From a virus (taxonomy: Duplodnaviria; Caudoviricetes), in the IMG/VR virus record IMGVR_UViG_3300034161_000018, positions 160,001 through 224,000 of that record: a stretch of 64,000 nucleotides of DNA. One strand, 5' to 3'. The position numbers were made by a program, and so were the translations under genes. This document shows, piece by piece, positions 20,688 through 56,357 of this stretch. How positions within the stretch are numbered: the first letter of the stretch is position 1; each line of letters starts with the position of its first letter. A model generated the notes under the pieces. The model was given only the letters and a program-made list of their open reading frames with translations, was not told the origin of the DNA and ran no database searches.

Positions 20688-21701
20688 ATGTCCAGCGACA
20701 AAAACCTAACAGGTGAACAGATTCAACAGATTATGGATATGTTTTTGTATAAAGCATTAGAACCCATAATCATGAACACCAATGCGTTTGACGCGCAGGC
20801 TGAATATTTGCTGATGCTTATCGCTGCAAACGGCAAACGCAAACTCAGTAGTTTGGATCGTGAAGTTGTGGTTGAGTTGCTGGCGGCATACGTGGCACAA
20901 CCCGACCGGCGTAAAAAGTACGAACTCATTCGCGAGGCCCGCATCGAAAGATATTTCCTGCATGGTTTCGCGAAAAAGTTTGTGACGGACAATCTCGAAT
21001 TCGTCCGTAGTTACAACGAATACATTGAGGCGCCGACGGCTTCCGTCCGCAACTACCTCAATAACCGCGCTGCCATCATCGGTGATTGTGGACGCGCAGA
21101 TTTCTTTAATGCGGTTCGCGTTTCCAATGCGTACCTCAAACGCTTCTATGAATATCGGGAAACGATCATTGGTCATTACCTGAAACATAGCAGCAAACAA
21201 GCAAAGGCTTATGTCAGTCAGAGTCATGGCGGTTCGGATTTTCGGGACTTGCGCCAGTCGATTTTGAAAGCGGTGATTACTGCACTGGATAAGTACGATA
21301 GCCGGAAAGGCGCGCTGACCTCCTACATCAACTTCTGGATTTTCAACGCGGCCACTGGCTCGACCGAACATGAATACGGTATCGCCTACACGATTCCTCA
21401 AACACAGAAAAAGAAATTGTTTGAGAAACAGAGTAGCGAAGTAAACTTTAGTGTCAGCCTCGACGCACTGACCAAGAACGATGACGACGAAAACAATCTG
21501 GCGCTACACTCGACGCTAGGTTCTGACAACCAACTCGATGAAGACATTGAGAATATGGAAACCAGCCGAATCGTCCAAGCGCTTGCGAAATGCGTTGACC
21601 GGCGCGGCGTTGCCCGCCTGTGCCTAGACATTGGGGAGTATTTCAGTCCGGGCGAAATGCGAAAGATGCACGATCAAATGCTGAGCGAAGGGCTGGCCTG
21701 A
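20688..21701 (+). CDS. phage RNA polymerase sigma factor
   Basis: region 2: DLRQSILKAVITALDKYDSRKGALTSYINFWI; SLDA motif. Confidence 0.8.
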   Translation: MSSDKNLTGEQIQQIMDMFLYKALEPIIMNTNAFDAQAEYLLMLIAANGKRKLSSLDREVVVELLAAYVAQPDRRKKYELIREARIERYFLHGFAKKFVTDNLEFVRSYNEYIEAPTASVRNYLNNRAAIIGDCGRADFFNAVRVSNAYLKRFYEYRETIIGHYLKHSSKQAKAYVSQSHGGSDFRDLRQSILKAVITALDKYDSRKGALTSYINFWIFNAATGSTEHEYGIAYTIPQTQKKKLFEKQSSEVNFSVSLDALTKNDDDENNLALHSTLGSDNQLDEDIENMETSRIVQALAKCVDRRGVARLCLDIGEYFSPGEMRKMHDQMLSEGLA

Positions 21702-23243: not shown

Positions 23244-24809
23244 ATGGCTAAAGCTACAGCAAAAGAAAAGGCGCCCGCTAAGAAAGCGGCTGCCAAAGAA
23301 AAGGCACCAGCGAAAAAAGCTGCGGCCAAAGAAGCCCCGGCCAAAGAGCCGAAGGTCAGCAAGGCAAAGGCTGCGAAAGAAGTAGTCGCCGAAGTTGAAC
23401 CGAAAAAGTTCTTCAACCCATACGCAAACATCGACGCCGAAATCGACGGCATGGAAAAGAAGTTCGGTCTGACTTCTATGTCCATTGCGGAAAAAGAAGA
23501 TCGGTTCGATACCGGCCTGTTGTGCTTGAACCTGCAAATGGCTGGCGGTCTGTTGGCCGGTGGCTGGTACACGTTCTTCGGCGGTGAACAATCGTGTAAA
23601 ACCACAACCGCAACTGCGGTACTCGGTTCGATTATTCGCCAAGTAAACTTTATCGGTCGTGCGGCATTCTTCGACTATGAAGGTTCGTTCTCTGCGGATT
23701 ACGCGGAAAGCATGTGGAAATATGCTGCGAACGGTCGCCCGCATACCGTGTCCGATGTTTTCGGTGTGAAAAACGAAGAAGGCGAGTGGATTGTTCCGCC
23801 ACGCATTCGTTACTACGCGCCTTCGGTCGGTGAAGATTTCTTCAACTACGTCGCCAAACTCGAAAAGACTTTGCCAGACGTTCTGTTGATCGACGGAAAC
23901 TTCTACTACATCTACGAAAACACGAAAGCGAACCAGAAGCTGACCAAGGGGCAATACGACAAAAAGTATTTCACCAAGTTCAACAAGTTCAAGGTTCCGG
24001 CGCCGCACGGACTGCCGCAAGCAATCGTTTTGACCGACTCCTATCCCGCAATGTTGCCGGGTCGGATGGACGACAAAGACGAAGGCACCGATGGTCTGGC
24101 TTCGCAAGCGCGTATGTTCTCGGAAGGGATCAAGCGCGTCAAAGGTGCAATGAAGCGGAAACGAATTGTGGTTTTGGGTATTAACCAACTCCGCAAAATT
24201 CCGATGGCAATGCACGGCCCGACCGAAGACGAACCTTGCGGCCAAGCGCTCAAGTTTTTCTCGGATGCGCGTTTCCGTATGACCTCCATTTCGATTCCGC
24301 ACGGCACCGTGAAGGGTTCGATGGAAGAAGAAGGTTCGCTTTCCGGCGAAGGCATCGACACTTACCGTTACATCCGCTGCAAAACTTTCAAGAACAAACT
24401 TGGCGGTGTGCAGGGCGCGACTTTCGATATGCGAATTCGCGTTGCGGACTCCAACGGGGAAGCGTCCGGGTTCTGCCGCGTTCACGACTGCTGGCAGTAT
24501 CTGAAAGCCACCGGTCAAATCAGCGGCCAGCGTAACAAAATCAAATTCGGCGAAAAGACTCCGTTCCCCGGAAAGGTTGTGTCTTGGCTGGAACTGAAAG
24601 CGCTGATCGACGGCGACAAAGAGCTTATCAAGAAAGGTTGCGCTAAACTCGCGCCGGGCAAAAAGCCTTTGCGCATTTACGAATGGTGCCGCGACCAAAT
24701 GGCTTCCGGAAAAGGCTACGCGCTGTATCTGGAAACCATCAAGAACAACAACACCAAGAAGAACGCAAAAGCTGCCGCTGGCGTTTCGGATGATTTGGAC
24801 GACGAATAA
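23244..24809 (+). CDS. RecA/UvsX-like recombinase
   Basis: DTGLLCLNLQMAGG, Walker A GGEQSCKTT, VLTDS, QARMFS, INQLR, GQALKFFSD. Confidence 0.9.
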   Translation: MAKATAKEKAPAKKAAAKEKAPAKKAAAKEAPAKEPKVSKAKAAKEVVAEVEPKKFFNPYANIDAEIDGMEKKFGLTSMSIAEKEDRFDTGLLCLNLQMAGGLLAGGWYTFFGGEQSCKTTTATAVLGSIIRQVNFIGRAAFFDYEGSFSADYAESMWKYAANGRPHTVSDVFGVKNEEGEWIVPPRIRYYAPSVGEDFFNYVAKLEKTLPDVLLIDGNFYYIYENTKANQKLTKGQYDKKYFTKFNKFKVPAPHGLPQAIVLTDSYPAMLPGRMDDKDEGTDGLASQARMFSEGIKRVKGAMKRKRIVVLGINQLRKIPMAMHGPTEDEPCGQALKFFSDARFRMTSISIPHGTVKGSMEEEGSLSGEGIDTYRYIRCKTFKNKLGGVQGATFDMRIRVADSNGEASGFCRVHDCWQYLKATGQISGQRNKIKFGEKTPFPGKVVSWLELKALIDGDKELIKKGCAKLAPGKKPLRIYEWCRDQMASGKGYALYLETIKNNNTKKNAKAAAGVSDDLDDE

Positions 24810-24829
24810 ACTTCCACTAGGCCGGAAGG

Positions 24830-24853
24830 GTGGGGGCTTCGGCCCCCGCTTTT
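24830..24853 (+). terminator. intrinsic terminator
   Basis: GTGGGGGC-TTCG-GCCCCCGC-TTTT. Confidence 0.9.
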
Positions 24854-24869
24854 CGTCTAAGTGCTTGAT

Positions 24870-24898
24870 TTGCCTCGGGTTGCAGGGTGTGGTACAAT
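24870..24898 (+). promoter_or_regulatory. sigma70-type promoter
   Basis: TTGCCT-17 nt-TACAAT with TGn extension. Confidence 0.8.
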
Positions 24899-24932
24899 AG
24901 CTGCGCCCAAGCGTCACCGACTGCAAGGCTTA

Positions 24933-24955
24933 ACACTTACGACTTAGAGGAAGTT
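24933..24955 (+). promoter_or_regulatory. 23-bp leader element, copy 4
   Basis: ACACTTACGACTTAGAGGAAGTT, 34 nt after -10, overlaps RBS of 24959. Confidence 0.85.
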
Positions 24956-24958
24956 TGA

Positions 24959-25375
24959 ATGGAAACCGAACAGCCCCGAATCGAATACGCAATCTCCGAA
25001 TCCCACAAAGGCAAACTGGTTCAGATTCATTTGATCCGAATGCCGGAAGACCGGAAGCGTCACCCGTTGAAAAGTTTGAACGGGTTCCGTCGTCGCATGA
25101 CAAAAATGTTTGCAGCCTACAGCGACAAACAGAAGGGCACCGGGAAGTCGCCGTGGCCACCTCGGAGTTTTCAAATTCAGTTCATCGAAGACCGGGAAGC
25201 CGAACTGGAAGCGTTTGCGGAAACCCCGGAGTTGCGCGACGCTTTGTACAAGGCAGAAGCACCTGACCTCACGCACGAAAACATTTTCGATTTCTATTCC
25301 AGTATCGGATACGATCACAAGCGTAACCGATTTGATTCGCTAGGAGCAAAGAATGGCGAAGGCCAAGAAAGATAA
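24959..25375 (+). CDS. hypothetical early protein
   Basis: 138-aa ORF, GAGG RBS. Confidence 0.75.
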   Translation: METEQPRIEYAISESHKGKLVQIHLIRMPEDRKRHPLKSLNGFRRRMTKMFAAYSDKQKGTGKSPWPPRSFQIQFIEDREAELEAFAETPELRDALYKAEAPDLTHENIFDFYSSIGYDHKRNRFDSLGAKNGEGQER

Positions 25376-32324: not shown

Positions 32325-33021
32325 TGAACTCGTTTCCGGTTTTATTCCCCCGGTAGCAACACACGAAGCGCGGCCCACAAAGCCGCGTTTTCGCGTTCGG
32401 CGCCGAGATTCTTTCAATTTCCTTTCCGGAGTTTTCTTTGGCAACCCGCTTGGCTACCGAAACACGATGACGGTAGACATTGAGTTGCCAGCGGAAAAGC
32501 CCAAACCTATTTACCGTGACGGCATCAACTATCACGAAGCTGATGTGATTGCGGATAACGTTTTTGAAGTACCGGACGCGGAACTGTTGGCCTTCAACGA
32601 TCAGACGATTGACAAGGCCGAAGCGTTCAAACAAATCATGTATTCCAGCGCCGCAACATTGAGCGCAATGGACACCGCTTCTGATTACGTTGGTGCAGCG
32701 CTCAATGATGGCCTCGATTTAGGACTCGATATGGATGATCGCCCGTTTGCGGCTTTCGTCCATTTTTCACGTCTGGAGATTTTATCGCAAGCCGTCGAGC
32801 TTTTAAAAATCAGCGACAAACAAAAACGTTTGCTGCTGGGGTATCTGACCAAAGCAATGTCGGACAAAGCGGTCGAAGCAATGACTGCAATGGACAATGG
32901 CGAGAAAGCTAGACGTATGCTGCAAGCGCAGATGCACGCGGTTGTAAAACCTCAATCACGACAGACCGAGGAAATTGATCTTTACGACAAGAAACTCGGC
33001 CACAAGAGGGCGCGTCTGTGA
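32311..33021 (+). CDS. hypothetical helical protein, candidate terminase small subunit
   Basis: directly upstream of and GTGA-coupled to TerL; start uncertain (32311 or 32467). Confidence 0.45.
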   Translation: MLSPDELVSGFIPPVATHEARPTKPRFRVRRRDSFNFLSGVFFGNPLGYRNTMTVDIELPAEKPKPIYRDGINYHEADVIADNVFEVPDAELLAFNDQTIDKAEAFKQIMYSSAATLSAMDTASDYVGAALNDGLDLGLDMDDRPFAAFVHFSRLEILSQAVELLKISDKQKRLLLGYLTKAMSDKAVEAMTAMDNGEKARRMLQAQMHAVVKPQSRQTEEIDLYDKKLGHKRARL

Positions 33022-35939
33022 AGCTACGAGAAAAGAGCAAAAAGAAAACAAGCTCAAACATTATTGTTCCGAGCACGGAAATCATCACGCCGGACAACCC
33101 GTTCGACTATTTGCAAACGTTGAAGAAAGGCGGATTGAAATCTACGCACGGTGAAGACTTTGACCCGGCAGCGTTGGCATCCAGTCGAACGGTAATCGGT
33201 GCGGGCAACTATGACGATCAGGAAATCGACATTGCCCGACAGATTCGCGAAACGGTAGATTCCAAAATCATCGTCCCAAAGGATATGAAAATCGACGATG
33301 GGGATTTGCCCTGCGCTGCAAACTTTTACGAATGGGTTACAGAAGACCGATTCGGGGCCGTCGATGAAGAACGCCCATTCCTTGAACAGTTGATTTGGGG
33401 AATCGTAACGTTCAACGACGCATGCCCGCGCTGCTCCGATAACGAATGGTTGTATCACGATCACAAGGTCGATGACACGTACCGGAAGTTTGAAAGAAAA
33501 GTTGCACTGATGCACCACGGCGTTTGCCCGCATTGCAAAATGGGCCGTTCGGAATTGGTCACGTCCGGGCAAATGAAATTCATCAACGAACTCGCGGTGA
33601 ACGCGGGCCAGCGTTGTGTGATTGGAACCACGCCGGTTCTGACAGCCGAAGGTGTGTTGCGTATTTCGGAATGTTTACCGGATGCGCCGTATTACTTCAC
33701 CGATTTTGAAATGGATGTGCATAACGGTAATGAGTTGGAAACTACTTCCGATTTCTACCGCGCCAAACCAGAACTCATTATCCGCGTGAAACTTTCCAAC
33801 GGTGTTTCGATTGCGGGCACCGCTGACCATCCAATCCTTTGTGGCGAAACGTTTATCACATTGGGCGAGATTGCGATGGGCCAAGAAGTCGGAGTCGCAT
33901 ACGGCCAGCGCTGTTTCGGTTCCGGTGTTCTCGATTACGCTTTCCAAGTTGGCGCCCGGTTCAACGCGCCAGAAGTCAGCAAGACAATTCGTACCGCAAA
34001 TGTTTGGATGGTGCGGGATTTCTTGCGTGGCATGTTTCAGTCGAAGGAACGCGCTTTCCTTTCGATGTTGGCAATCTCAGACGTAAGCGCCCTGCTCTTT
34101 AACCTCGGCATTTATCATAGCATTGACGGCCCGGCAATTATTTTGACGGATGACGGCTTTGCCTTTTTACATGGCGACGGCAACGATCTTCCTTCCGGCA
34201 CCGTAATGGAAAAAGTTGTAGCCATTACGATGGAAGCCGAACAGGATACCTTCGATTTCACCTTGCCCCAAACTCACCAGTTTGTAACAGGCGGAATCAT
34301 CAGTCACAACTCTGGCAAATCTCACACAATCGGCGGATACCTTTACCCGTATCTGACTCACCGAATGTTGAAAATGCAAAAGCCCGCGCAGTTCTATCGC
34401 TTGGCGCGGACAACCGTTTTGCATGCCACGTTTGTTGCACTCACCTATGCGCAAGCCAAAGATACTTTGTGGACACCGTTTTACGGCGCGATCCTTTCGA
34501 GCCAATGGTTCCAGCAATATCACAGCATGCTCAAATTCTACGAAAACAAATACGGCGAATCGCTGCTGAAACTCAACGACACGTTCGTTGTTTACAAGCC
34601 GCGTGGCCTCATGGTTTATCCGGCTGGCCCGGACAAACGGGTTCTCCGTGGTCGTACACGATTCGGCGCCTCAATCGACGAAATCGCATACTTCGACAGC
34701 CAGAAAGATTCCACCAAAGTAAAAATCAACGCCCACGAAGTTTACGACGCAATGACGAACAGCCTGTATACCTTGCGGGCAGCGGCAGAACGTTTGATTA
34801 ACAACGGCGCCGACGACGTGTTCCCCGGTTACTCGATGAACGTAACGTCGCCGGTTGCGCGCAACGACATGATTCACACATTGTTGAATCGCGCAAAAGA
34901 TTCGCAATCCATGTATGGCATTCACCGGCCAACATGGGAAGTAAACCCGGACTTCCCGCGCAACTCCCGTTTGATTACGGAAGCGTATCGGAAAGACCCG
35001 GACTCGGCTGAGAAAAACTTTGGCGCCAACCCGCCACTGATTGCAAACCCGTTTATCTCAAACCACGATTTCATCACCGGCGCAGAAGACCGCGACCGGA
35101 AGTCTGTTGTGAAAATCGAAATCGTCATGAAGACTTCCCGTAAACAGGGCCAGTCGTTTATGTACGGTCAGGTGAAGAAAGTCAAAAAGTCTGCGTATGC
35201 GACAATGATGGCACTCGACGCCGGTTTGACAGACAACAGTTTTGCGATGGCTGGTGGCCGACCAGACGGGCTTAATTTAAAAGTAGACTTCGCAACCGAG
35301 ATTATTCCGCAGAACGGTTTCAAGATTAACCACAGTTTGGTTTACTCCGACTTGATCTTGCCAGTAATGGAAGCGCGTAATTGCAAAATCCTACTGGCCG
35401 ACCGCTGGAACTCGATCAAACTTCTGGACGACGCAAAGCTCGATATGGGCGATCCGGAAGACGATGAAGATACTTTCATTGCGAAACAATACAGCCTCAA
35501 GTATCGGGACATGGTTAGCGTGCGGACTTGCCTTGAACAAGGTATTATCCGTTTGCCAAAATCCGAAATCAAAGTCAAATCCTTGCTGGAAGTGCTTGAC
35601 TCGGAATACCGTGACTTCTACGACGGCAAACCAATTGCGCATTTGTTTAAGCAACTGTACACCATTAAAGACTTGGAAAAATCGGTCGGCAAAGGTGACG
35701 GTTACACGGACGATATTTGGCGCGCTGTTGCTTTGCTTCTTTGGGGTTTGATGGAAGAAGAATTCCAAGGCATTCTGCTTTCCGAACCTGTTCACTTTGA
35801 AAAAACCAAACCGGCTGCTCTCGGGTTCTCCCGTTTGTACTCGGGCGGTGGCGGCACAGTTGGATCAGGCCAAGGCGGCGGACAAGCAACTCTAATCAAC
35901 GGCGCACCACTCGGCGTAATGGCGCGCAACAAACGGTAA
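33018..35939 (+). CDS. terminase large subunit with intein
   Basis: Walker A GQR|SGKS split by intein; Walker B SIDEIAYF; nuclease ALDAG. Confidence 0.9.
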   Translation: MKLREKSKKKTSSNIIVPSTEIITPDNPFDYLQTLKKGGLKSTHGEDFDPAALASSRTVIGAGNYDDQEIDIARQIRETVDSKIIVPKDMKIDDGDLPCAANFYEWVTEDRFGAVDEERPFLEQLIWGIVTFNDACPRCSDNEWLYHDHKVDDTYRKFERKVALMHHGVCPHCKMGRSELVTSGQMKFINELAVNAGQRCVIGTTPVLTAEGVLRISECLPDAPYYFTDFEMDVHNGNELETTSDFYRAKPELIIRVKLSNGVSIAGTADHPILCGETFITLGEIAMGQEVGVAYGQRCFGSGVLDYAFQVGARFNAPEVSKTIRTANVWMVRDFLRGMFQSKERAFLSMLAISDVSALLFNLGIYHSIDGPAIILTDDGFAFLHGDGNDLPSGTVMEKVVAITMEAEQDTFDFTLPQTHQFVTGGIISHNSGKSHTIGGYLYPYLTHRMLKMQKPAQFYRLARTTVLHATFVALTYAQAKDTLWTPFYGAILSSQWFQQYHSMLKFYENKYGESLLKLNDTFVVYKPRGLMVYPAGPDKRVLRGRTRFGASIDEIAYFDSQKDSTKVKINAHEVYDAMTNSLYTLRAAAERLINNGADDVFPGYSMNVTSPVARNDMIHTLLNRAKDSQSMYGIHRPTWEVNPDFPRNSRLITEAYRKDPDSAEKNFGANPPLIANPFISNHDFITGAEDRDRKSVVKIEIVMKTSRKQGQSFMYGQVKKVKKSAYATMMALDAGLTDNSFAMAGGRPDGLNLKVDFATEIIPQNGFKINHSLVYSDLILPVMEARNCKILLADRWNSIKLLDDAKLDMGDPEDDEDTFIAKQYSLKYRDMVSVRTCLEQGIIRLPKSEIKVKSLLEVLDSEYRDFYDGKPIAHLFKQLYTIKDLEKSVGKGDGYTDDIWRAVALLLWGLMEEEFQGILLSEPVHFEKTKPAALGFSRLYSGGGGTVGSGQGGGQATLINGAPLGVMARNKR
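33615..34310 (+). mobile_element. intein (232 aa) in TerL Walker A, degenerate endonuclease
   Basis: N-terminal CVIGTTPVLT, block B TADHPI, C-terminal TFDFTL...ISHN followed by Ser. Confidence 0.92.
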
Positions 35940-36930: not shown

Positions 36931-38817
36931 ATGAAACTACGAAAACGCGGGGCTGGTGCTGCAATGCACACGGCAACTTCAACCGCCGCGCCGAAAACCC
37001 AAACCAATGCCGGTATCTTTACCGGTCGGCGTTTGGGGCCGGAACGTGACGAAATGGACGACAAAATGTCGGCGACGGCAGCGGTTGGCAATGGTATGAA
37101 AAACACCAGTGTCGCGCAGTTGCCAATCGAAATCGACATTGATCCACTGCTGAAAGATATTGTGTTCAGCGAAGACCTTGAACAGAAAAAACTGGTCATG
37201 CGTCTGTTTACCGACATTTACTACAACGACCCGACTGCCGGTTCGATTGTGGATATTAAGTCGAACCTGATGTTTTCCGAATTCAACCTCGGCGGCATTA
37301 TGGACAAAAAGGTCGCGCAGGCATTTGGCGAATCTTTGGAAAACCTAAACATCCGCAACCTGATGCCACACGCATTGGTTGACCACGATGTAAAAGGTGC
37401 ATTCGTTGGCTCGTTGCTGTACAACGAAAAGAAGAAAACGTTTGTCGATGTGATGCCACACGGTTACGAGAACTGCAAAGTTGATATGCTGCCGTTCTTC
37501 AACCAAGACCCGTTGATTACCGTCGCGTTTCCGGACGACGTGCGGGCGACAATGGGCGTGGACACTCCGCGACTGAAAGCATTGCGTGAGTATTTGGGCG
37601 CCGAAGTAATTGCACAAATCAGCAATGCCGCGCTGGAACTGGATGCGAAATCGACAATCTATTTGCCGCGTCAAGCATTCACAAACAGCACGGGCGTTTC
37701 GTATTACCGCCGCATTCTGCCGATGTATCTTTTGGAGAAAAACCTTTTCCGGGGAACGCTGGTTGAATCGGCCCGTCGCCAACGCGGTATTCTGCACCTG
37801 ACGCTTGACGGCGGCGGGGAATGGGAACCGACGGTTGCCGACTTTGAAATGATGACGCAACTTTTCCAAAATGCTGACGCCGATCCGTTGGGTGCAATCA
37901 TTGCAACCCGCTCAGGGATTAGCGCAGACGAACTTCGCCAAGGCGGCGATTTCTGGAAAGTGACCGACGTTTGGGATTCGACGCTTTCAATGAAACTGAA
38001 AGCACTCGGGATTTCCGAAGCGTTCTTGAGTGGTGACGCAACATTCTCCAACCAAGACACTTCTATGTCGTTCTTCATTGACGGCATTCGTGGTCAGCGT
38101 GATTTGTTTGTTCGCAAAATGCTGTACAACCGCATCTTCCCGTTGATTTCTGCGTTGAACGGTTTTGTAATCGGTCAAAACGGAAAGCTGACTCGACGCG
38201 GTAACATGCTGGACAAGATCGACCCGATGGGCAACATCGGCATTCTCAATGACGGTTCGCGTTTGCTGATTCCGTCTGTGCATTGGGAAAAAACTTTGAA
38301 GCCGGAAGGCGATCAGCAATACATGGATATGTTGCAAGCACTTACCGAAAAAGGTGTGCCTGTTCCAATTCGTGCAATGGCTGCCGCTGCTGGTTTCAAC
38401 ATCGAACGTCTGCTCGCCGATCAACAAGGCGACAAAGACCTGATGGAAGAATTGTCGAAGTACAACAAAGAAATCGCAGACATTAAAGCGAAGTACGGCC
38501 CTGCTGATGGTGGCGACGACGGTACTGCAATGGCTTCGGCTTTGGCAGGCGCACGCTATTTGCAAAACATTCAGAACGGTTCGCGCTCCGATGTATTGGC
38601 GCGCAATAACGGGAAAATGTTGGGCTTGGCATCGCGTGATTTCGGCGAAGACTTTGAAGTTGCTGGCATGACACACGACGGTAAACGCCGCTACCTGCAC
38701 GATCAGAAGAAAGGGCAGGAACGCGCAAACCGTAAAATCGTTAAGCAACTGCAATCTATTCGTTTGGCAAACAACACGCATTTGTCCCGAATGACCACTA
38801 CCCCGTTTAAAGGGTAA
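36931..38817 (+). CDS. probable portal protein
   Basis: 628 aa, two genes after TerL; YYNDPTAGSIVDI; assigned mainly from synteny and size. Confidence 0.6.
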   Translation: MKLRKRGAGAAMHTATSTAAPKTQTNAGIFTGRRLGPERDEMDDKMSATAAVGNGMKNTSVAQLPIEIDIDPLLKDIVFSEDLEQKKLVMRLFTDIYYNDPTAGSIVDIKSNLMFSEFNLGGIMDKKVAQAFGESLENLNIRNLMPHALVDHDVKGAFVGSLLYNEKKKTFVDVMPHGYENCKVDMLPFFNQDPLITVAFPDDVRATMGVDTPRLKALREYLGAEVIAQISNAALELDAKSTIYLPRQAFTNSTGVSYYRRILPMYLLEKNLFRGTLVESARRQRGILHLTLDGGGEWEPTVADFEMMTQLFQNADADPLGAIIATRSGISADELRQGGDFWKVTDVWDSTLSMKLKALGISEAFLSGDATFSNQDTSMSFFIDGIRGQRDLFVRKMLYNRIFPLISALNGFVIGQNGKLTRRGNMLDKIDPMGNIGILNDGSRLLIPSVHWEKTLKPEGDQQYMDMLQALTEKGVPVPIRAMAAAAGFNIERLLADQQGDKDLMEELSKYNKEIADIKAKYGPADGGDDGTAMASALAGARYLQNIQNGSRSDVLARNNGKMLGLASRDFGEDFEVAGMTHDGKRRYLHDQKKGQERANRKIVKQLQSIRLANNTHLSRMTTTPFKG

Positions 38818-38834
38818 ATGGTAAAACGGAAACG

Positions 38835-38879
38835 GCTACCCTAATTTATCCATACTGGTTGAGCTAGGGTAGCTTTTTT
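38835..38879 (+). terminator. intrinsic terminator after portal gene
   Basis: GCTACCCTA...TAGGGTAGC-TTTTTT. Confidence 0.75.
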
Positions 38880-38881
38880 CA

Positions 38882-39185
38882 TCGGTAGAGCCTTTTCTGT
38901 GGTTGTCGCCAACTTGAAGTTGGGTGACTTCAACTTGCCGAAACGAATAGATTTACCTCGTCCATAAGTCTGTTCCCGCAGACGCTCGGCTGCCCTAGCT
39001 CGGGCCAGTACCGAATTCTCTTTTTCGCCGCCTTTTGGTCGGACTACTCCTGAGAAGTTAAATCCTAAATCGCGCTGCTAACGAATGTAATGTGCTAGGA
39101 AGCGAAAGCAGTCCGTTGTCACATTGCTTTCTGAGCGGCAAAACGTAACTGGAACTTTTCGCGCGACCTGAACCTAAAAGGCGGC
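38882..39185 (+). ncRNA. candidate structured ncRNA A (multibranch domain plus 159-nt rod)
   Basis: no ATG-initiated ORF of 60 aa or more; many hand-folded stems with G-U pairs on + strand; GAAA tetraloop. Confidence 0.55.
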
Positions 39186-39236
39186 ACCTATTTCAAAACT
39201 GTAAACATGCTGCATACACTCACCGAGGAATTTCAA

Positions 39237-39611
39237 GTGGAAAGCGTCGCAATCCCCGCCAGTCAATACGAAAAGAGTTTTGTTGTCGGCCTGTTTGAAG
39301 GGCTTGCAGTAGAAGTTGTTTTCTTGAAGCACGGCGATGTGCCCGTCTACATTAACGAATCCGGTGAATCGGCTGTTGCTGAAACGGAACTGGTGCAAAT
39401 CACGCTTCCAACTTCCGAAGGTTCCGAAAAGATGGCGCAGACTCTGCGTGACGCGTTGCTGAAATTGCGTTCGCCAGATTCCAACACTGTGTTCATTCGT
39501 TCGGCAGACTTTGCGGAAATCAACAACAAGCTGTTTACGTTCGCCCAACTCTGCGTCGGCTTTGTCCACGCCAAATCTGTAACGGAAAATGAATCTGCAA
39601 CCTCGCAATAA
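39237..39611 (+). CDS. hypothetical protein
   Basis: GTG 39237 after GAGG (track start 39207 abuts the AAACTGTAAAC motif). Confidence 0.7.
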   Translation: MESVAIPASQYEKSFVVGLFEGLAVEVVFLKHGDVPVYINESGESAVAETELVQITLPTSEGSEKMAQTLRDALLKLRSPDSNTVFIRSADFAEINNKLFTFAQLCVGFVHAKSVTENESATSQ

Positions 39612-39633
39612 GTTTGACGACGCCGGTGACAAA

Positions 39634-39744
39634 ATGCTCAATGTTTTACTGAGCGCGCCGCCGTTATTTATGGAAGCGCTTTGCGCAATCATTCTGGTGG
39701 CCGGTTATTTCTTTTGGCCGGTTTCACAAATCTGTAAATACTGA
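39634..39744 (+). CDS. 36-aa hydrophobic peptide (not in ORF track)
   Basis: MLNVLLSAPPLFMEALCAIILVAGYFFWPVSQICKY; no clear RBS. Confidence 0.4.
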   Translation: MLNVLLSAPPLFMEALCAIILVAGYFFWPVSQICKY

Positions 39745-39745
39745 A

Positions 39746-40148
39746 TATGGGAAGATGCTTTCCCGAAAGAGCACTAACGGGTGCTGTCCTTCATCCGTTA
39801 TTGCGCCTGCGCTTCGGTGCCGCTCGTTGTTCCTGAGAGTTGGTTCTAGTAGTCGCCATAGGTGATCCGATTAGCGCCCAGCGTGAAGTGGTGCTATAAA
39901 AGCTAAACAACTTCCTCCGCAACCAAAGCGTTACCTTTACCTCCCTGCGTTTCTTAATGTCCTAAGAAGCGTAGTAAAAAGGACGTGACTTTCGTTTGTG
40001 CGGTAAACCCACGGGAATAGGGCCGTGTGGTCGGCTGTTACATTTTTGAAATGATCGTGCGTGATTTGGTCGATTTGCCGGGCGTAAGCGGCTCATTGAA
40101 TTCGTTTCCCCAAGCCGCGTTCGGAATCCCCACCAGCGCGGCTTTTTT
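39746..40148 (+). ncRNA. candidate structured ncRNA B (about 400 nt)
   Basis: TGTAAATA upstream, several G-U-containing stems, UUCG loop, terminator at 40112-40148. Confidence 0.55.
40112..40148 (+). terminator. intrinsic terminator
   Basis: AAGCCGCG...CGCGGCTT-TTTT. Confidence 0.65.
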
Positions 40149-41117
40149 ATGTCTGAAAAATGGAGTGTCACTATTATGGCCGGTTCTGAATCTGCTGCAA
40201 TTGAGCAACTCGACGAAAAAGAAATCTATCACAAGCAAGCGCGTGCAGGTAATCGCATCAAGCAAGTGATGGCAGCGCTGCATATGGAAATCAAAGGCTT
40301 GGATCAGCGGCGCACACAACTGGAACGCCAGTACGCGCAGCTTGAAGAAGCTTTGGAACTACAACAATTCTCGCCGCTGAATATCGGCAAGCGTGATTTG
40401 CCGGAACGCCCAAACAATCACCTCGGCCTGTGCAACGAAATTCCAATGCCCGGTGGCAGTGGTGACACGCCAATTGAATTCACTTTCAATGAAGCTGCGC
40501 GGGACGCATTCTTTGGCCCGCCGATGTTTGAAAGTGGCAAACACATTGACGACTGGCCTGCATCGACAATCGAAACTCCGGTCGAAGTAAAAGAACCTGA
40601 TTTCCTACCAGTGTTCCAGCTTGGCCCGCAAGACAAATTCTATCCACACACCATGCGCGGCGCAGATTGGAATGATGCACTGAATTTCGGTTGCAGCTTT
40701 CCGGAAGACACCGAAGGTTACTGGCGACACAATCCACAAAAGCCCGCTGCCGACGTTTACGAAAAACTTCCGTGGCCGGTTGCTCGCGACATTCCGGGTT
40801 ACAACCCGTTGGATTTCCACAAGCGTATGCGCGACGTTGAAAACCATTCAGCGACCGAGCGTAAAGTTTATCGCGGTATGACAATGCACCGCTGGCATGG
40901 TGGAACATTGGGCAATGCTGAATTCTGGCGTGGTTCATTCCGTTGGCCGGATTCGTATGGCAACTACATTTCCGAAGGCGTGCCACCGTCGCGACATTTC
41001 TTCCGTTTCATCATGACGGAACACGCGGAAATCTTCCCGAAACATCCAACGCTTTCCAATGAAGAATTCAACACCGTGTTCAATTGGTTGCCGAATATGA
41101 AACGAACGCCGGAATGA
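40149..41117 (+). CDS. hypothetical protein, N-terminal coiled coil
   Basis: 322-aa ORF; start codon uncertain. Confidence 0.75.
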   Translation: MSEKWSVTIMAGSESAAIEQLDEKEIYHKQARAGNRIKQVMAALHMEIKGLDQRRTQLERQYAQLEEALELQQFSPLNIGKRDLPERPNNHLGLCNEIPMPGGSGDTPIEFTFNEAARDAFFGPPMFESGKHIDDWPASTIETPVEVKEPDFLPVFQLGPQDKFYPHTMRGADWNDALNFGCSFPEDTEGYWRHNPQKPAADVYEKLPWPVARDIPGYNPLDFHKRMRDVENHSATERKVYRGMTMHRWHGGTLGNAEFWRGSFRWPDSYGNYISEGVPPSRHFFRFIMTEHAEIFPKHPTLSNEEFNTVFNWLPNMKRTPE

Positions 41118-56326: not shown

Positions 56327-56357
56327 TCGCTCGGCTAATTTAACCATACACATACAA

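What the first reader, a model, noticed from the sequence alone, without database searches (positions are those of the whole stretch)
39027..39185. 159-nt rod with a central A-rich bubble: a phage-encoded 6S RNA mimic?
Hand folding gives one irregular hairpin. Stems: GCCGCCTTTT/AAAAGGCGGC (39027-36/39176-85, perfect); GGTCG/CGACC; GAGAAGTT/AACTTTTC (39052-59/39153-60). Then an unpaired bubble of 14 and 13 nt (AAATCCTAAATCGC / AAAACGTAACTGG), followed by GCTGCT/AGCGGC, GTAATGTG/CACATTGC and an apical GC-GAAA-GC loop. G-U pairs in three stems point to a + strand RNA. CCTGAG and CCTGAACC recall segments of proteobacterial 6S RNA (from memory). Established: 6S RNA mimics an open promoter and sequesters sigma70 holoenzyme. 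Inference: a phage with its own sigma factors could use such an RNA to silence host and early sigma70 transcription. I know of no described case.
Basis: partly seen in the sequence, partly recalled or inferred. Interest (0 to 1): 0.88.

Follow-up and report, generated by a model that had tools for sequence, protein, structure and literature searches.

The report
Folded leader RNA behind phage portal gene
The 159-base hairpin is real and is kept by compensating mutations in seven related giant phages, but it is the second half of a roughly 350-base folded RNA of a new family behind the portal gene, and nothing tested makes it a 6S RNA.

Summary
The rod at 39027-39185 is real. It folds better than all 200 shuffles (z -4.2). 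In 8 sequences from 7 related uncultured jumbo-phage lineages, 91.7% of its pair cells hold and 14 of 44 pairs show compensatory double changes. G-U pairs place it on the + strand. The 14/13-nt central bubble is conserved in sequence and predicted open.

It is not a free-standing gene. A second covariation-supported domain (rod A, 38854-39009) lies directly upstream. Both sit between a TAATTTA promoter-like motif behind the portal stop and an AAACTGTAAAC promoter motif in front of a 124-aa gene. No promoter separates the rods and no terminator follows rod B. A 366-nt contig from a wastewater run labelled RNA-Seq covers only the two rods, which hints at a stable RNA.

No Rfam family matches, including the 6S and pRNA models, even at E<=10. 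My best reading is a new two-domain structured leader or stable RNA that acts through a factor bound at the invariant bubble. A 6S-like RNA polymerase decoy remains possible (about 10%) but untested.

This scan earlier found positionally analogous portal-downstream rod RNAs in Lu11-like phages. Their sequences are unrelated to this one.

The parts
36931..38817 (+). Portal gene. The element lies directly downstream of it.
   Evidence: phrog_16240 portal, E 2.6e-237. Lu11, PaBG and HRDY3 portal genes match at 68-72% nt.
38834..38879 (+). Terminator-like hairpin (GGCTACCCTA ... TAGGGTAGC plus a T6 run), a possible end of the portal transcript. Its 3' arm is also the 5' arm of rod A.
   Evidence: Inverted repeat I1 and sequence. 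The stem has a mismatch and the T run is degraded in L032 and L002, so it is only weakly conserved. Its function is inferred.
38842..38849 (+). TAATTTAT promoter-like motif, about 5 nt before the 5' arm of rod A.
   Evidence: TAATTTA occurs 13 times in the genome. 9 copies lie in the 6.5% of the genome that is intergenic, all oriented with the downstream gene and mostly 20-50 nt before an SD and ATG. This copy is invariant in all 6 lineages that cover it. In Lu11-like relatives the motif overlaps the portal stop codon.
38854..39009 (+). Rod A: a Y-shaped domain with a basal helix of about 21 bp and two apical hairpins. One apical loop, TTGGGTGA, is invariant.
   Evidence: RNAalifold gives 48 pairs, 7 with double changes. 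96.1% of cells pair, against 28-43% when slid, and 0/500 shuffles reach that. 47 G-U cells. Model R2 hits only the subclade and one copy per genome.
39010..39026 (+). Single-stranded U-rich linker between the rods. It holds no promoter motif.
   Evidence: Unpaired in the single-sequence and consensus folds. No TAATTTA or CTGTAAA lies here.
39027..39185 (+). Rod B, the finding: an unbranched rod with a closing helix, a variable internal loop, an 8-bp helix, a conserved bubble, a 6-bp helix and a hypervariable apical stem.
   Evidence: Model R1 hits only the 7 subclade lineages and one copy per genome.
39060..39073 (+). 5' strand of the central bubble, conserved (AATCCTA..TCG).
   Evidence: Alignment A2, columns 41-54. 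Unpaired probability 0.61-0.77.
39140..39152 (+). 3' strand of the central bubble, conserved (AAACGTAA..TGG). It weakly resembles the phage promoter motif.
   Evidence: Alignment A2, columns 127-138. Unpaired probability 0.53-0.84. It matches AAACTGTAAAC at 7 of 11 positions, by my own count (local chance about 0.03), so this is a lead only.
39195..39206 (+). AAAACTGTAAAC phage promoter motif directly after rod B.
   Evidence: 31 exact AACTGTAAA copies and 59 CTGTAAA copies in the genome, nearly all oriented with the genes. The same core is annotated 'putative middle/late promoter' in Lu11. Invariant in all lineages.
39237..39611 (+). The 124-aa gene of unknown function that follows the RNA. 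Its real start is GTG 39237, with SD GAGGA at 39225-29.
   Evidence: Homologues were called at 122-127 aa. The ATG at 39207 is not conserved. AF2 pLDDT is 82, with no Pfam, PHROG or fold match.

Best explanation
Rod B is the 3' domain of a two-domain structured RNA (rod A plus rod B, about 330-380 nt) encoded on the + strand in the gap behind the portal gene.

Shown:
- Both domains are held by compensatory changes.
- Each is single copy and confined to one subclade of Lu11/PaBG-related jumbo phages.
- They lie between a TAATTTA promoter-like motif and the AAACTGTAAAC promoter of the next gene.
- No promoter lies between the rods and no terminator lies behind rod B.

Inferred:
- The RNA starts a few bases after TAATTTAT, so it begins with rod A. 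It then runs on as a long 5' leader of the 124-aa gene and accumulates as a stable fragment.
- It works in cis on its own transcript. A protein, possibly RNA polymerase itself, recognises the invariant internal loop of rod B while the stems supply shape.
- The outcome is either a longer transcript life or read-through of the conserved terminator at 40112-40148. The next gene (ATG 40176) has no promoter of its own behind that terminator.
- It is not a member of the 6S family.
For: Structure and strand.

Constraint: nucleotide identity of the gap (68-88%) lies between the portal 3' end (79-93%) and the 124-aa gene (57-78%).

Layout: TAATTTA enrichment and orientation, and the CTGTAAAC motif. The consensus fold leaves the SD and start codon open and shows no terminator after rod B.

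RNA hint: in a wastewater run labelled RNA-Seq cDNA, a 366-nt contig (depth about 9) covers about 38870-39236 only. The 870 nt of portal gene upstream have no cover, and the 124-aa gene has none beyond about 39250. A second run has a 151-nt contig that bridges rod B into the coding region.

Downstream terminator with SD and ATG directly behind it.

Positional analogues: distant relatives carry a rod of about 130-170 nt at the same place between the same motifs and a conserved terminator.
Against: - No transcript ends were mapped. The RNA evidence is two low-depth contigs of a library whose RNA nature is only on record, not verified.
- A second promoter directly after rod B means the gene can be expressed without the leader.
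- The ribosome site is not sequestered, so no simple translational switch is visible.
- No binding protein was identified. The neighbouring 124-aa protein has no recognisable fold.
- The cis versus trans question is open.
Confidence: 0.5

Rival explanations
1. Trans-acting 6S-like decoy. After release from the leader, rod B binds an RNA polymerase holoenzyme (host sigma70 or the phage sigma form) as an open-promoter mimic and shifts transcription.
For: - Rod, central open bubble and rod geometry at 159 nt.
- The phage encodes a sigma factor, as PaBG-group phages are reported to (PMC7412058).
- RNA-labelled contigs suggest a stable species.
- The 3' bubble strand, which corresponds to the non-template strand in 6S RNA (my knowledge of the E. 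coli 6S-holoenzyme complex), resembles the phage promoter core at 7 of 11 positions.
- Unrelated rods occupy the same locus in sister clades, which fits recognition by shape.
Against: - No 6S-type Rfam model matches at E<=10, although controls ring.
- There is no own promoter or terminator. Rod B is always fused to rod A, which this model does not explain.
- The contig covers both rods and 50 nt beyond.
- The promoter resemblance is within chance (about 0.03 locally, and about one such match is expected per rod).
Confidence: 0.1
2. RNase III processing or stability module. The long duplexes are cut by host RNase III, or block exonucleases, so that portal-operon and downstream messages are separated and protected, as in the T7 intercistronic hairpins or lambda sib.
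For: - Rod A has a basal helix of about 21 bp, almost without interruption, and rod B a closing helix of about 16 bp.
- The position is between two transcription units.
- The RNA-labelled contig begins inside the basal helix of rod A (about 38870).
Against: - Invariant single-stranded loop sequences and about 320 nt of conserved architecture are far more than such sites need.
- The phage encodes no RNase III or dsRBD protein, though that does not exclude the host enzyme.
- The terminator-like hairpin before rod A suggests that portal transcripts mostly stop earlier.
Confidence: 0.15
3. Packaging RNA analogue. The RNA binds the portal or terminase during head filling, as phi29 pRNA does.
For: It is adjacent to the terminase large subunit (33018-35939) and portal genes. 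The size and the two-domain fold are loosely comparable.
Against: - No match to the pRNA family in the all-Rfam scan.
- pRNA is known only from phi29-like podoviruses and is not encoded next to the portal gene there (my knowledge).
- No loop-loop complementarity with covariation was found here.
Confidence: 0.03
4. DNA-level element (cruciform, origin or protein-binding palindrome) rather than an RNA.
For: The perfect 10-bp terminal inverted repeat, and the overlap of its 3' arm with the GC-rich stretch upstream of the CTGTAAAC promoter.
Against: 12.6% of conserved pair cells are G-U and would be A-C on the other strand. The apical stem covaries freely. RNA-labelled contigs cover it.
Confidence: 0.03

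Closest known systems
Bacterial 6S RNA (SsrS, Rfam RF00013 and related 6S families)
   Same: An unbranched rod of about 160 nt with a closing helix, a large open central bubble and a terminal stem-loop. It is encoded by a genome that relies on a sigma switch.
   Different: No covariance-model similarity. It is not an independent gene and is fused to a second domain, without its own promoter or terminator. Holoenzyme binding and product RNA are untested.
Portal-downstream rod RNAs of Lu11-like jumbo phages
   Same: The same genomic slot directly behind the portal gene, the same two motifs (TAATTTA and CTGTAAA) and a rod-shaped fold of 130-170 nt.
   Different: No sequence or model similarity. 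In those phages both motifs precede a single rod, which is followed by a small hairpin and a strongly conserved terminator. Here two rods lie between the motifs and no terminator follows.
HK022 put RNAs (cis-acting processive antitermination RNAs; my knowledge, not tested)
   Same: Two adjacent stem-loop domains just downstream of a promoter and upstream of genes guarded by an intrinsic terminator. The loops and bulges are conserved.
   Different: put sites are about 70 nt in all, whereas this RNA has two domains of about 160 nt. No similarity test was possible, and read-through of the terminator at 40112-48 is not shown.
Lambda-type pR'-tR' short leader transcript ('lambda 6S', StxS; PMC7547250)
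   Same: A late promoter followed by a short non-coding RNA before late genes. That layout is met exactly by the second gap (39729-40148) and by the Lu11-like relatives.
   Different: Rod B itself lies upstream of the CTGTAAAC promoter and has no terminator. No Q-like factor was identified.
T7 RNase III processing hairpins and lambda sib (my knowledge)
   Same: Intercistronic irregular hairpins with an internal loop between upper and lower stems.
   Different: About three times longer, with invariant loop sequence and a branched partner domain. Cleavage is untested.
phi29 pRNA (Rfam RF00044)
   Same: A phage RNA of comparable size that is functionally tied to the portal. Here the tie is only gene neighbourhood.
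   Different: No model match, a different phage type, and no evidence of oligomerising loops.

Membership tests
6S RNA (RF00013 and other 6S families in Rfam 15) | Scores with the family covariance model | tested here: not met
   No hit at gathering score in the 64 kb. No 6S hit at E<=10 in 38700-39400. RF00013 finds nothing at E<=10 on the whole 275-kb genome, while 7 of 14 control genomes ring.
6S RNA | Rod of about 150-200 nt: closing stem, large single-stranded central bubble, terminal stem-loop | tested here: met
   159 nt and 44 conserved pairs in 6 collinear helices. The 14/13-nt bubble has unpaired probability 0.53-0.84 in 8 sequences.
6S RNA | Independent, abundant, stable transcript with defined ends | tested here: inconclusive
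   No promoter motif lies between rod A and rod B and no terminator lies after rod B. An RNA-labelled contig covers both rods together and 50 nt beyond. No end mapping is available.
6S RNA | Binds housekeeping-sigma holoenzyme and templates product RNA from the bubble | not testable with these tools
   Needs gel shift or co-immunoprecipitation and in-vitro transcription.
phi29-type packaging RNA (RF00044) | Scores with the family covariance model | tested here: not met
   The all-Rfam scan of the region at E<=10 returned only a chance miRNA hit at E=3.
Lu11-like portal-downstream rod RNA (unnamed family from earlier reports of this scan) | Sequence or structure homology to the rods in Lu11-like phages | tested here: not met
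   Models R1 and R2 give no hit in 14 relatives' loci, in Lu11, or in three complete 300-kb relatives. blastn finds nothing.
Lu11-like portal-downstream rod RNA | Position directly after the portal gene, flanked by TAATTTA and CTGTAAA motifs | tested here: met
Lu11-like portal-downstream rod RNA | Small hairpin and conserved intrinsic terminator directly after the rod | tested here: not met
   There is no terminator after rod B. In this phage that layout occurs in the next gap, 39729-40148.
put-type cis antitermination RNA | Makes the transcribing polymerase read through downstream terminators | not testable with these tools
   Only the layout fits: promoter-like motif, two stem-loop domains, and a conserved terminator at 40112-48 in front of a gene with no promoter of its own.
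RNase III processing site | About 20 bp or more of near-continuous duplex, cleaved by RNase III | tested here: inconclusive
   The duplex length is met by the base of rod A (about 21 bp) and nearly by rod B (about 16 bp). Cleavage was not tested. The phage encodes no RNase III.

The most novel reading that the evidence does not exclude
Rods A and B form an RNA-polymerase-directed RNA. Either rod B's bubble presents a single-stranded imitation of the phage's own -10-type promoter (AAACGUAA against AAACTGTAAAC) and titrates or parks the phage-sigma holoenzyme, or the two domains ride on the elongating polymerase, as put RNA does, and license read-through of the terminator that guards the next structural gene. 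Either way it would be an RNA-based timer of late transcription in a jumbo phage.
Probability: 0.15. Interest if true: 0.85.

Novelty: new variant of a known kind. Interest (0 to 1): 0.5.

Why it matters
Conserved non-coding RNAs of jumbo phages are almost unexplored. This locus, together with the unrelated rods at the same place in Lu11-like phages, shows that the slot behind the portal gene persistently holds a large structured RNA framed by the phage's two promoter-like motifs. That points to an RNA-based layer in late-gene control, through read-through, stability or polymerase capture. It also gives a compact, covariation-validated target of about 350 nt for biochemical tests with host and phage-sigma RNA polymerase.

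Tried and rejected
- Rfam, at gathering score on the window and at E<=10 on both gaps and on 7 relatives' loci: nothing except a chance miRNA hit.
- tRNA/tmRNA scan: none.
- Sigma70 promoter and terminator scan of 38000-40000: no promoter and nothing relevant.
- Repeat or mobile element: single copy in the genome. The 10-mer GCCGCCTTTT recurs 5 times in the window, but without the element.
- The 18-mer scan of viral contigs and the 21-mer scan of metagenome contigs gave only chance hits apart from L002.
- A search of viral contigs with the 134-aa ORF found nothing.
- Sequencing runs: no listed holder is on record as RNA in the first search. The second search gave two runs labelled RNA-Seq with small shares, which were laid. 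They are contigs only, so no ends, strand or levels can be read.
- The 124-aa neighbour: no Pfam or PHROG family, and the AF2 model has no PDB or AFDB match better than E 0.01.
- Rods A and B are not detectable paralogues.
- The second gap is not homologous to the Lu11-type leaders.
- Rod A loop (GGGUGA) pairing with UCACC before the SD: the partner is not conserved, so this was rejected.
- Bubble UCCU pairing with the SD: only 4 bp and both sides invariant, so it is untestable.
- Literature: no paper describing a phage-encoded 6S mimic surfaced.

Full report
Where the finding lies. The window is bases 160001-224000 of a 274,896-bp virus record with direct terminal repeats. It is a jumbo phage whose portal gene matches Pseudomonas phages HRDY3, Lu11 and PaBG at 68-72% nt. 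The finding (39027-39185) sits in a non-coding gap of about 420 nt. Upstream is the portal gene (36931-38817, phrog_16240) and downstream is a small gene of unknown function. The large terminase subunit lies further upstream at 33018-35939.

The 159 nt fold into one irregular hairpin at -56.6 kcal/mol, z -4.19, and none of 200 dinucleotide shuffles does as well. The reverse strand folds less well, at -52.4 and z -3.3. The closing repeat is a perfect 10-mer. In a genome-wide 160-nt scan, windows over rod A's part of this gap are among the best-folding 25 of about 6,900 + strand windows, so the gap is unusual but not unique.

Relatives. Portal-based retrieval gave one close relative, L002 (portal 85% aa), and many distant ones at 56-61%. 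Only L002 shares the gap, at 71% nt. A search with the downstream protein found five more homologues at 55-96% aa, and their contigs were fetched. Together these give 7 lineages and 8 distinct rod B sequences. All carry a gap of about 400-425 nt between the portal gene and this small gene.

Covariation of rod B. RNAalifold predicts 44 pairs, 14 of them with compensatory double changes. Counting on that structure gives 91.7% of cells paired, against 35-57% when partners are slid by 1-3 columns. There are 14 double-change pairs against 2-4 when slid, and 0 of 500 column shuffles reach the observed values. The apical stem is almost completely replaced between lineages yet still pairs. 44 of 349 pair cells are G-U, so on the minus strand pairing would fall to 81%. 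The functional strand is therefore the + strand, the same as the genes. The central bubble (39060-73 and 39140-52) is conserved in sequence (AATCCTA..TCG and AAACGTAA..TGG) and predicted largely unpaired in every lineage. Covariation supports GGTCGG paired with CCTG-ACC.

Rod B is not alone. The whole gap folds into two adjacent domains (z -4.4; the consensus fold has 102 pairs, 19 with double changes). Rod A (38854-39009) has a basal helix of about 21 bp and two apical hairpins. It is supported on its own by 96.1% paired cells (28-43% when slid), 7 double-change pairs (0-2 when slid) and 47 G-U cells. Covariance models of rod B (R1) and rod A (R2) each hit one place per genome, and only in this subclade. 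They do not hit Lu11, three complete 300-kb relatives or 14 relatives' portal loci, and they do not hit each other. Nucleotide identity of the gap (68-88%) lies between that of the portal 3' end (79-93%) and that of the downstream gene (57-78%), so the gap is under stronger constraint than its protein-coding neighbour.

Transcription signals. Two short motifs organise this genome.
- AAACTGTAAAC. There are 31 exact AACTGTAAA copies and 59 CTGTAAA copies. Nearly all are oriented with the local genes, on the - strand in the left arm and the + strand from about 152 kb on, and many lie 15-60 nt before a start codon. The same core is annotated 'putative middle/late promoter' right behind the Lu11 portal gene. 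One invariant copy lies at 39195-39206, directly after rod B.
- TAATTTA. It occurs 13 times. 9 copies lie in the 6.5% of the genome that is intergenic, all oriented with the downstream gene and mostly 20-50 nt before an SD and ATG. One invariant copy lies at 38842-38849, about 5 nt before the 5' arm of rod A.

What is absent matters as much. No motif lies between the rods, no terminator follows rod B, and the ribosome site of the next gene stays unpaired in the consensus fold. The true start of that gene is GTG 39237, with SD GAGGA at 39225-29. The upstream ATG at 39207 is not conserved, and homologues were called at 122-127 aa.

A possible end of the portal transcript. The stretch GGCTACCCTA (38834-43) can pair with the 5' arm of rod A and is followed by a T6 run, which makes a terminator-like hairpin. 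The TAATTTAT motif sits in its loop. This pairing is imperfect in two lineages, so I treat it as an inference.

RNA evidence is weak to moderate. No run on record as RNA holds the stretch well. Two wastewater runs labelled 'METAGENOMIC RNA-Seq cDNA' hold relatives. In one, a 366-nt contig (depth about 9, roughly 87% identical) covers about 38870-39236, which is the two rods and the short spacer up to the start codon. The 870 nt of portal gene laid upstream have no cover at all, and the downstream gene has none beyond about 39250. In the other, a 151-nt contig bridges the 3' half of rod B into the coding region. Contigs cannot give ends, strand or levels, and the RNA nature of the library is only on record. 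Even so, cover confined to the gap, when the more conserved portal gene is not covered, is what a stable structured RNA would give and not what DNA carry-over would give.

Comparison with known families. No Rfam family reaches its gathering score in the 64 kb. At E<=10 the region gives only a chance miRNA hit at E=3, so no 6S family, no pRNA and no ribozyme or riboswitch matches. RF00013 run on the whole phage genome at E<=10 finds nothing, while it rings in 7 of 14 control genomes. The premise that the phage has its own sigma factor is correct. Window 20688-21701 matches phrog_17569 'RNA polymerase sigma factor' at E 1e-125, with a weak Sigma70_r2 hit and no region 4 hit. PaBG-group phages are reported to encode one (PMC7412058). 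The phage has no RNase III or dsRBD gene. The neighbouring 124-aa protein gave a confident AF2 model (pLDDT 82) but no informative fold match.

The wider clade. In almost all distant relatives the portal stop codon is embedded in TAATTTA. In one group AAAACTGTAAAT follows with a 17-18-nt spacer, and after 62-69 nt in others. Then comes a leader of 10-280 nt, which in the longer cases folds into a rod of 130-170 nt starting at the expected transcript start. After it come a small CCTTTG..CAAAGG hairpin, a strongly conserved intrinsic terminator, and the SD and ATG of the next gene. Earlier follow-ups of this scan (e1-5377044, e1-5377053) described these rods in other genomes as a new RNA family of unknown role. 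They are not homologous to rods A or B or to any Rfam family. The slot behind the portal gene therefore persistently carries a rod-shaped RNA, with the sequence replaced between clades.

The second gap in this phage. The promoter, RNA, terminator and gene layout reappears in the next gap. ATCTGTAAATA lies at about 39729, followed by about 400 nt of conserved structure (110 consensus pairs, 21 with double changes). The terminator is at 40112-40148, the SD at 40162 and the ATG at 40176. That gene has no promoter motif of its own behind the terminator, so its expression must depend on read-through.

How it most likely works. Shown: rod B is one of two covariation-supported + strand RNA domains, framed by promoter-like motifs, without its own start or stop signal, and more conserved than the adjacent gene. 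Inferred: the RNA starts just after TAATTTAT, so it begins with rod A. It continues into the 124-aa gene as a long leader and persists as a stable fragment. The pattern of invariant loop sequence combined with freely covarying stems is typical of a site read by a protein. Because the ribosome site is open, a simple translational switch is unlikely. The two cis mechanisms I consider most coherent are protection of the message by a 5'-terminal structured domain, and put-like modification of the transcribing polymerase so that it passes the terminator at 40112-48. I put about 0.5 on 'cis-acting structured leader or stable RNA working through a bound factor'. Rivals are an RNase III or stability module (0.15), a trans-acting 6S-like polymerase decoy (0.10), a packaging RNA (0.03) and a DNA-level element (0.03). 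The rest is unassigned.

A lead for the decoy idea. The 3' bubble strand corresponds to the non-template strand in 6S RNA and reads AAAACGUAAC. It matches the phage promoter core AAACTGTAAAC at 7 of 11 positions in the right orientation. About one such match is expected per rod by chance, so it is not evidence.

Verdict. The 6S interpretation is not supported by any test that could be run and is made less likely by the context, but it is not excluded as a mode of action. The element is a new structured RNA, a sequence family of its own and a positional analogue of the Lu11-type portal-downstream rods. Its function is unknown and it is of moderate interest.

Noticed in passing
window 39729-40148: The second gap holds another conserved structured RNA. 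It has the promoter motif ATCTGTAAATA, about 400 nt with 110 consensus pairs (21 with double changes) and a conserved intrinsic terminator at 40112-48, immediately followed by SD 40162 and ATG 40176. No Rfam hit. Contigs of the RNA-Seq-labelled run touch 39871-39936 (depth 13) and the invariant core 40055-40093 (depth 98, flanks unlike the window).
   Followed up: partly
whole genome, e.g. window 5475, 5564, 5593, 5748, 15507, 21717, 27885, 39199, 41129: The promoter-type motif (C/G)(A/G)AAACTGTAAAC has 31 exact AACTGTAAA copies, oriented with the genes, and no -35-like consensus. It has the same core as Lu11's annotated 'putative middle/late promoter'. Four copies stand in tandem at 5475-5748.
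   Followed up: partly
window 38842, 42670, 56336, 62351 and 9 more in the genome: The TAATTTA(A) motif occurs 13 times, 9 of them intergenic and gene-oriented, 20-50 nt before an SD and ATG. It is under-represented overall (about 33 expected). It is probably a second promoter class of the -10-only type. The copy at 56336 shares the extended form GGCTAATTTAACCATAC with the one before rod A.
   Followed up: partly
window 20688-21701: A phage RNA polymerase sigma factor (phrog_17569, E 1e-125). It has only a weak Sigma70 region 2 match and no region 4 match, which fits promoters with no -35 consensus.
   Followed up: partly
L003-L020 and L035 (Lu11), first 100-350 nt after the portal stop: In Lu11-like relatives the portal TAA is part of TAATTTA. 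In one group CTGTAAAT follows with a 17-18-nt spacer, and after 62-69 nt in others. Then come a rod RNA of variable sequence, a CCTTTG..CAAAGG hairpin and a near-invariant terminator (ACCGCGCC...GGCGCGGT plus a T run) before the next gene. This is a lambda pR'-tR'-like layout.
   Followed up: partly
window 39207-39239 and 40149-40178: Two start codons need correcting. The small gene starts at GTG 39237 (124 aa), not ATG 39207. The next gene most likely starts at ATG 40176 (313 aa), not at ATG 40149, which lies in the terminator's T run.
   Followed up: yes
window 39589-39744: A 51-aa ORF overlaps the end of the 124-aa gene and has a hydrophobic stretch. It could be a small membrane protein or spurious.
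   Followed up: no
window 24761-24960 (+) and 5961-6280 (-): These are among the most stable 160-nt folding windows of the genome scan (z -4.4 on the + strand, -3.3 to -3.9 on the - strand).
   Followed up: no
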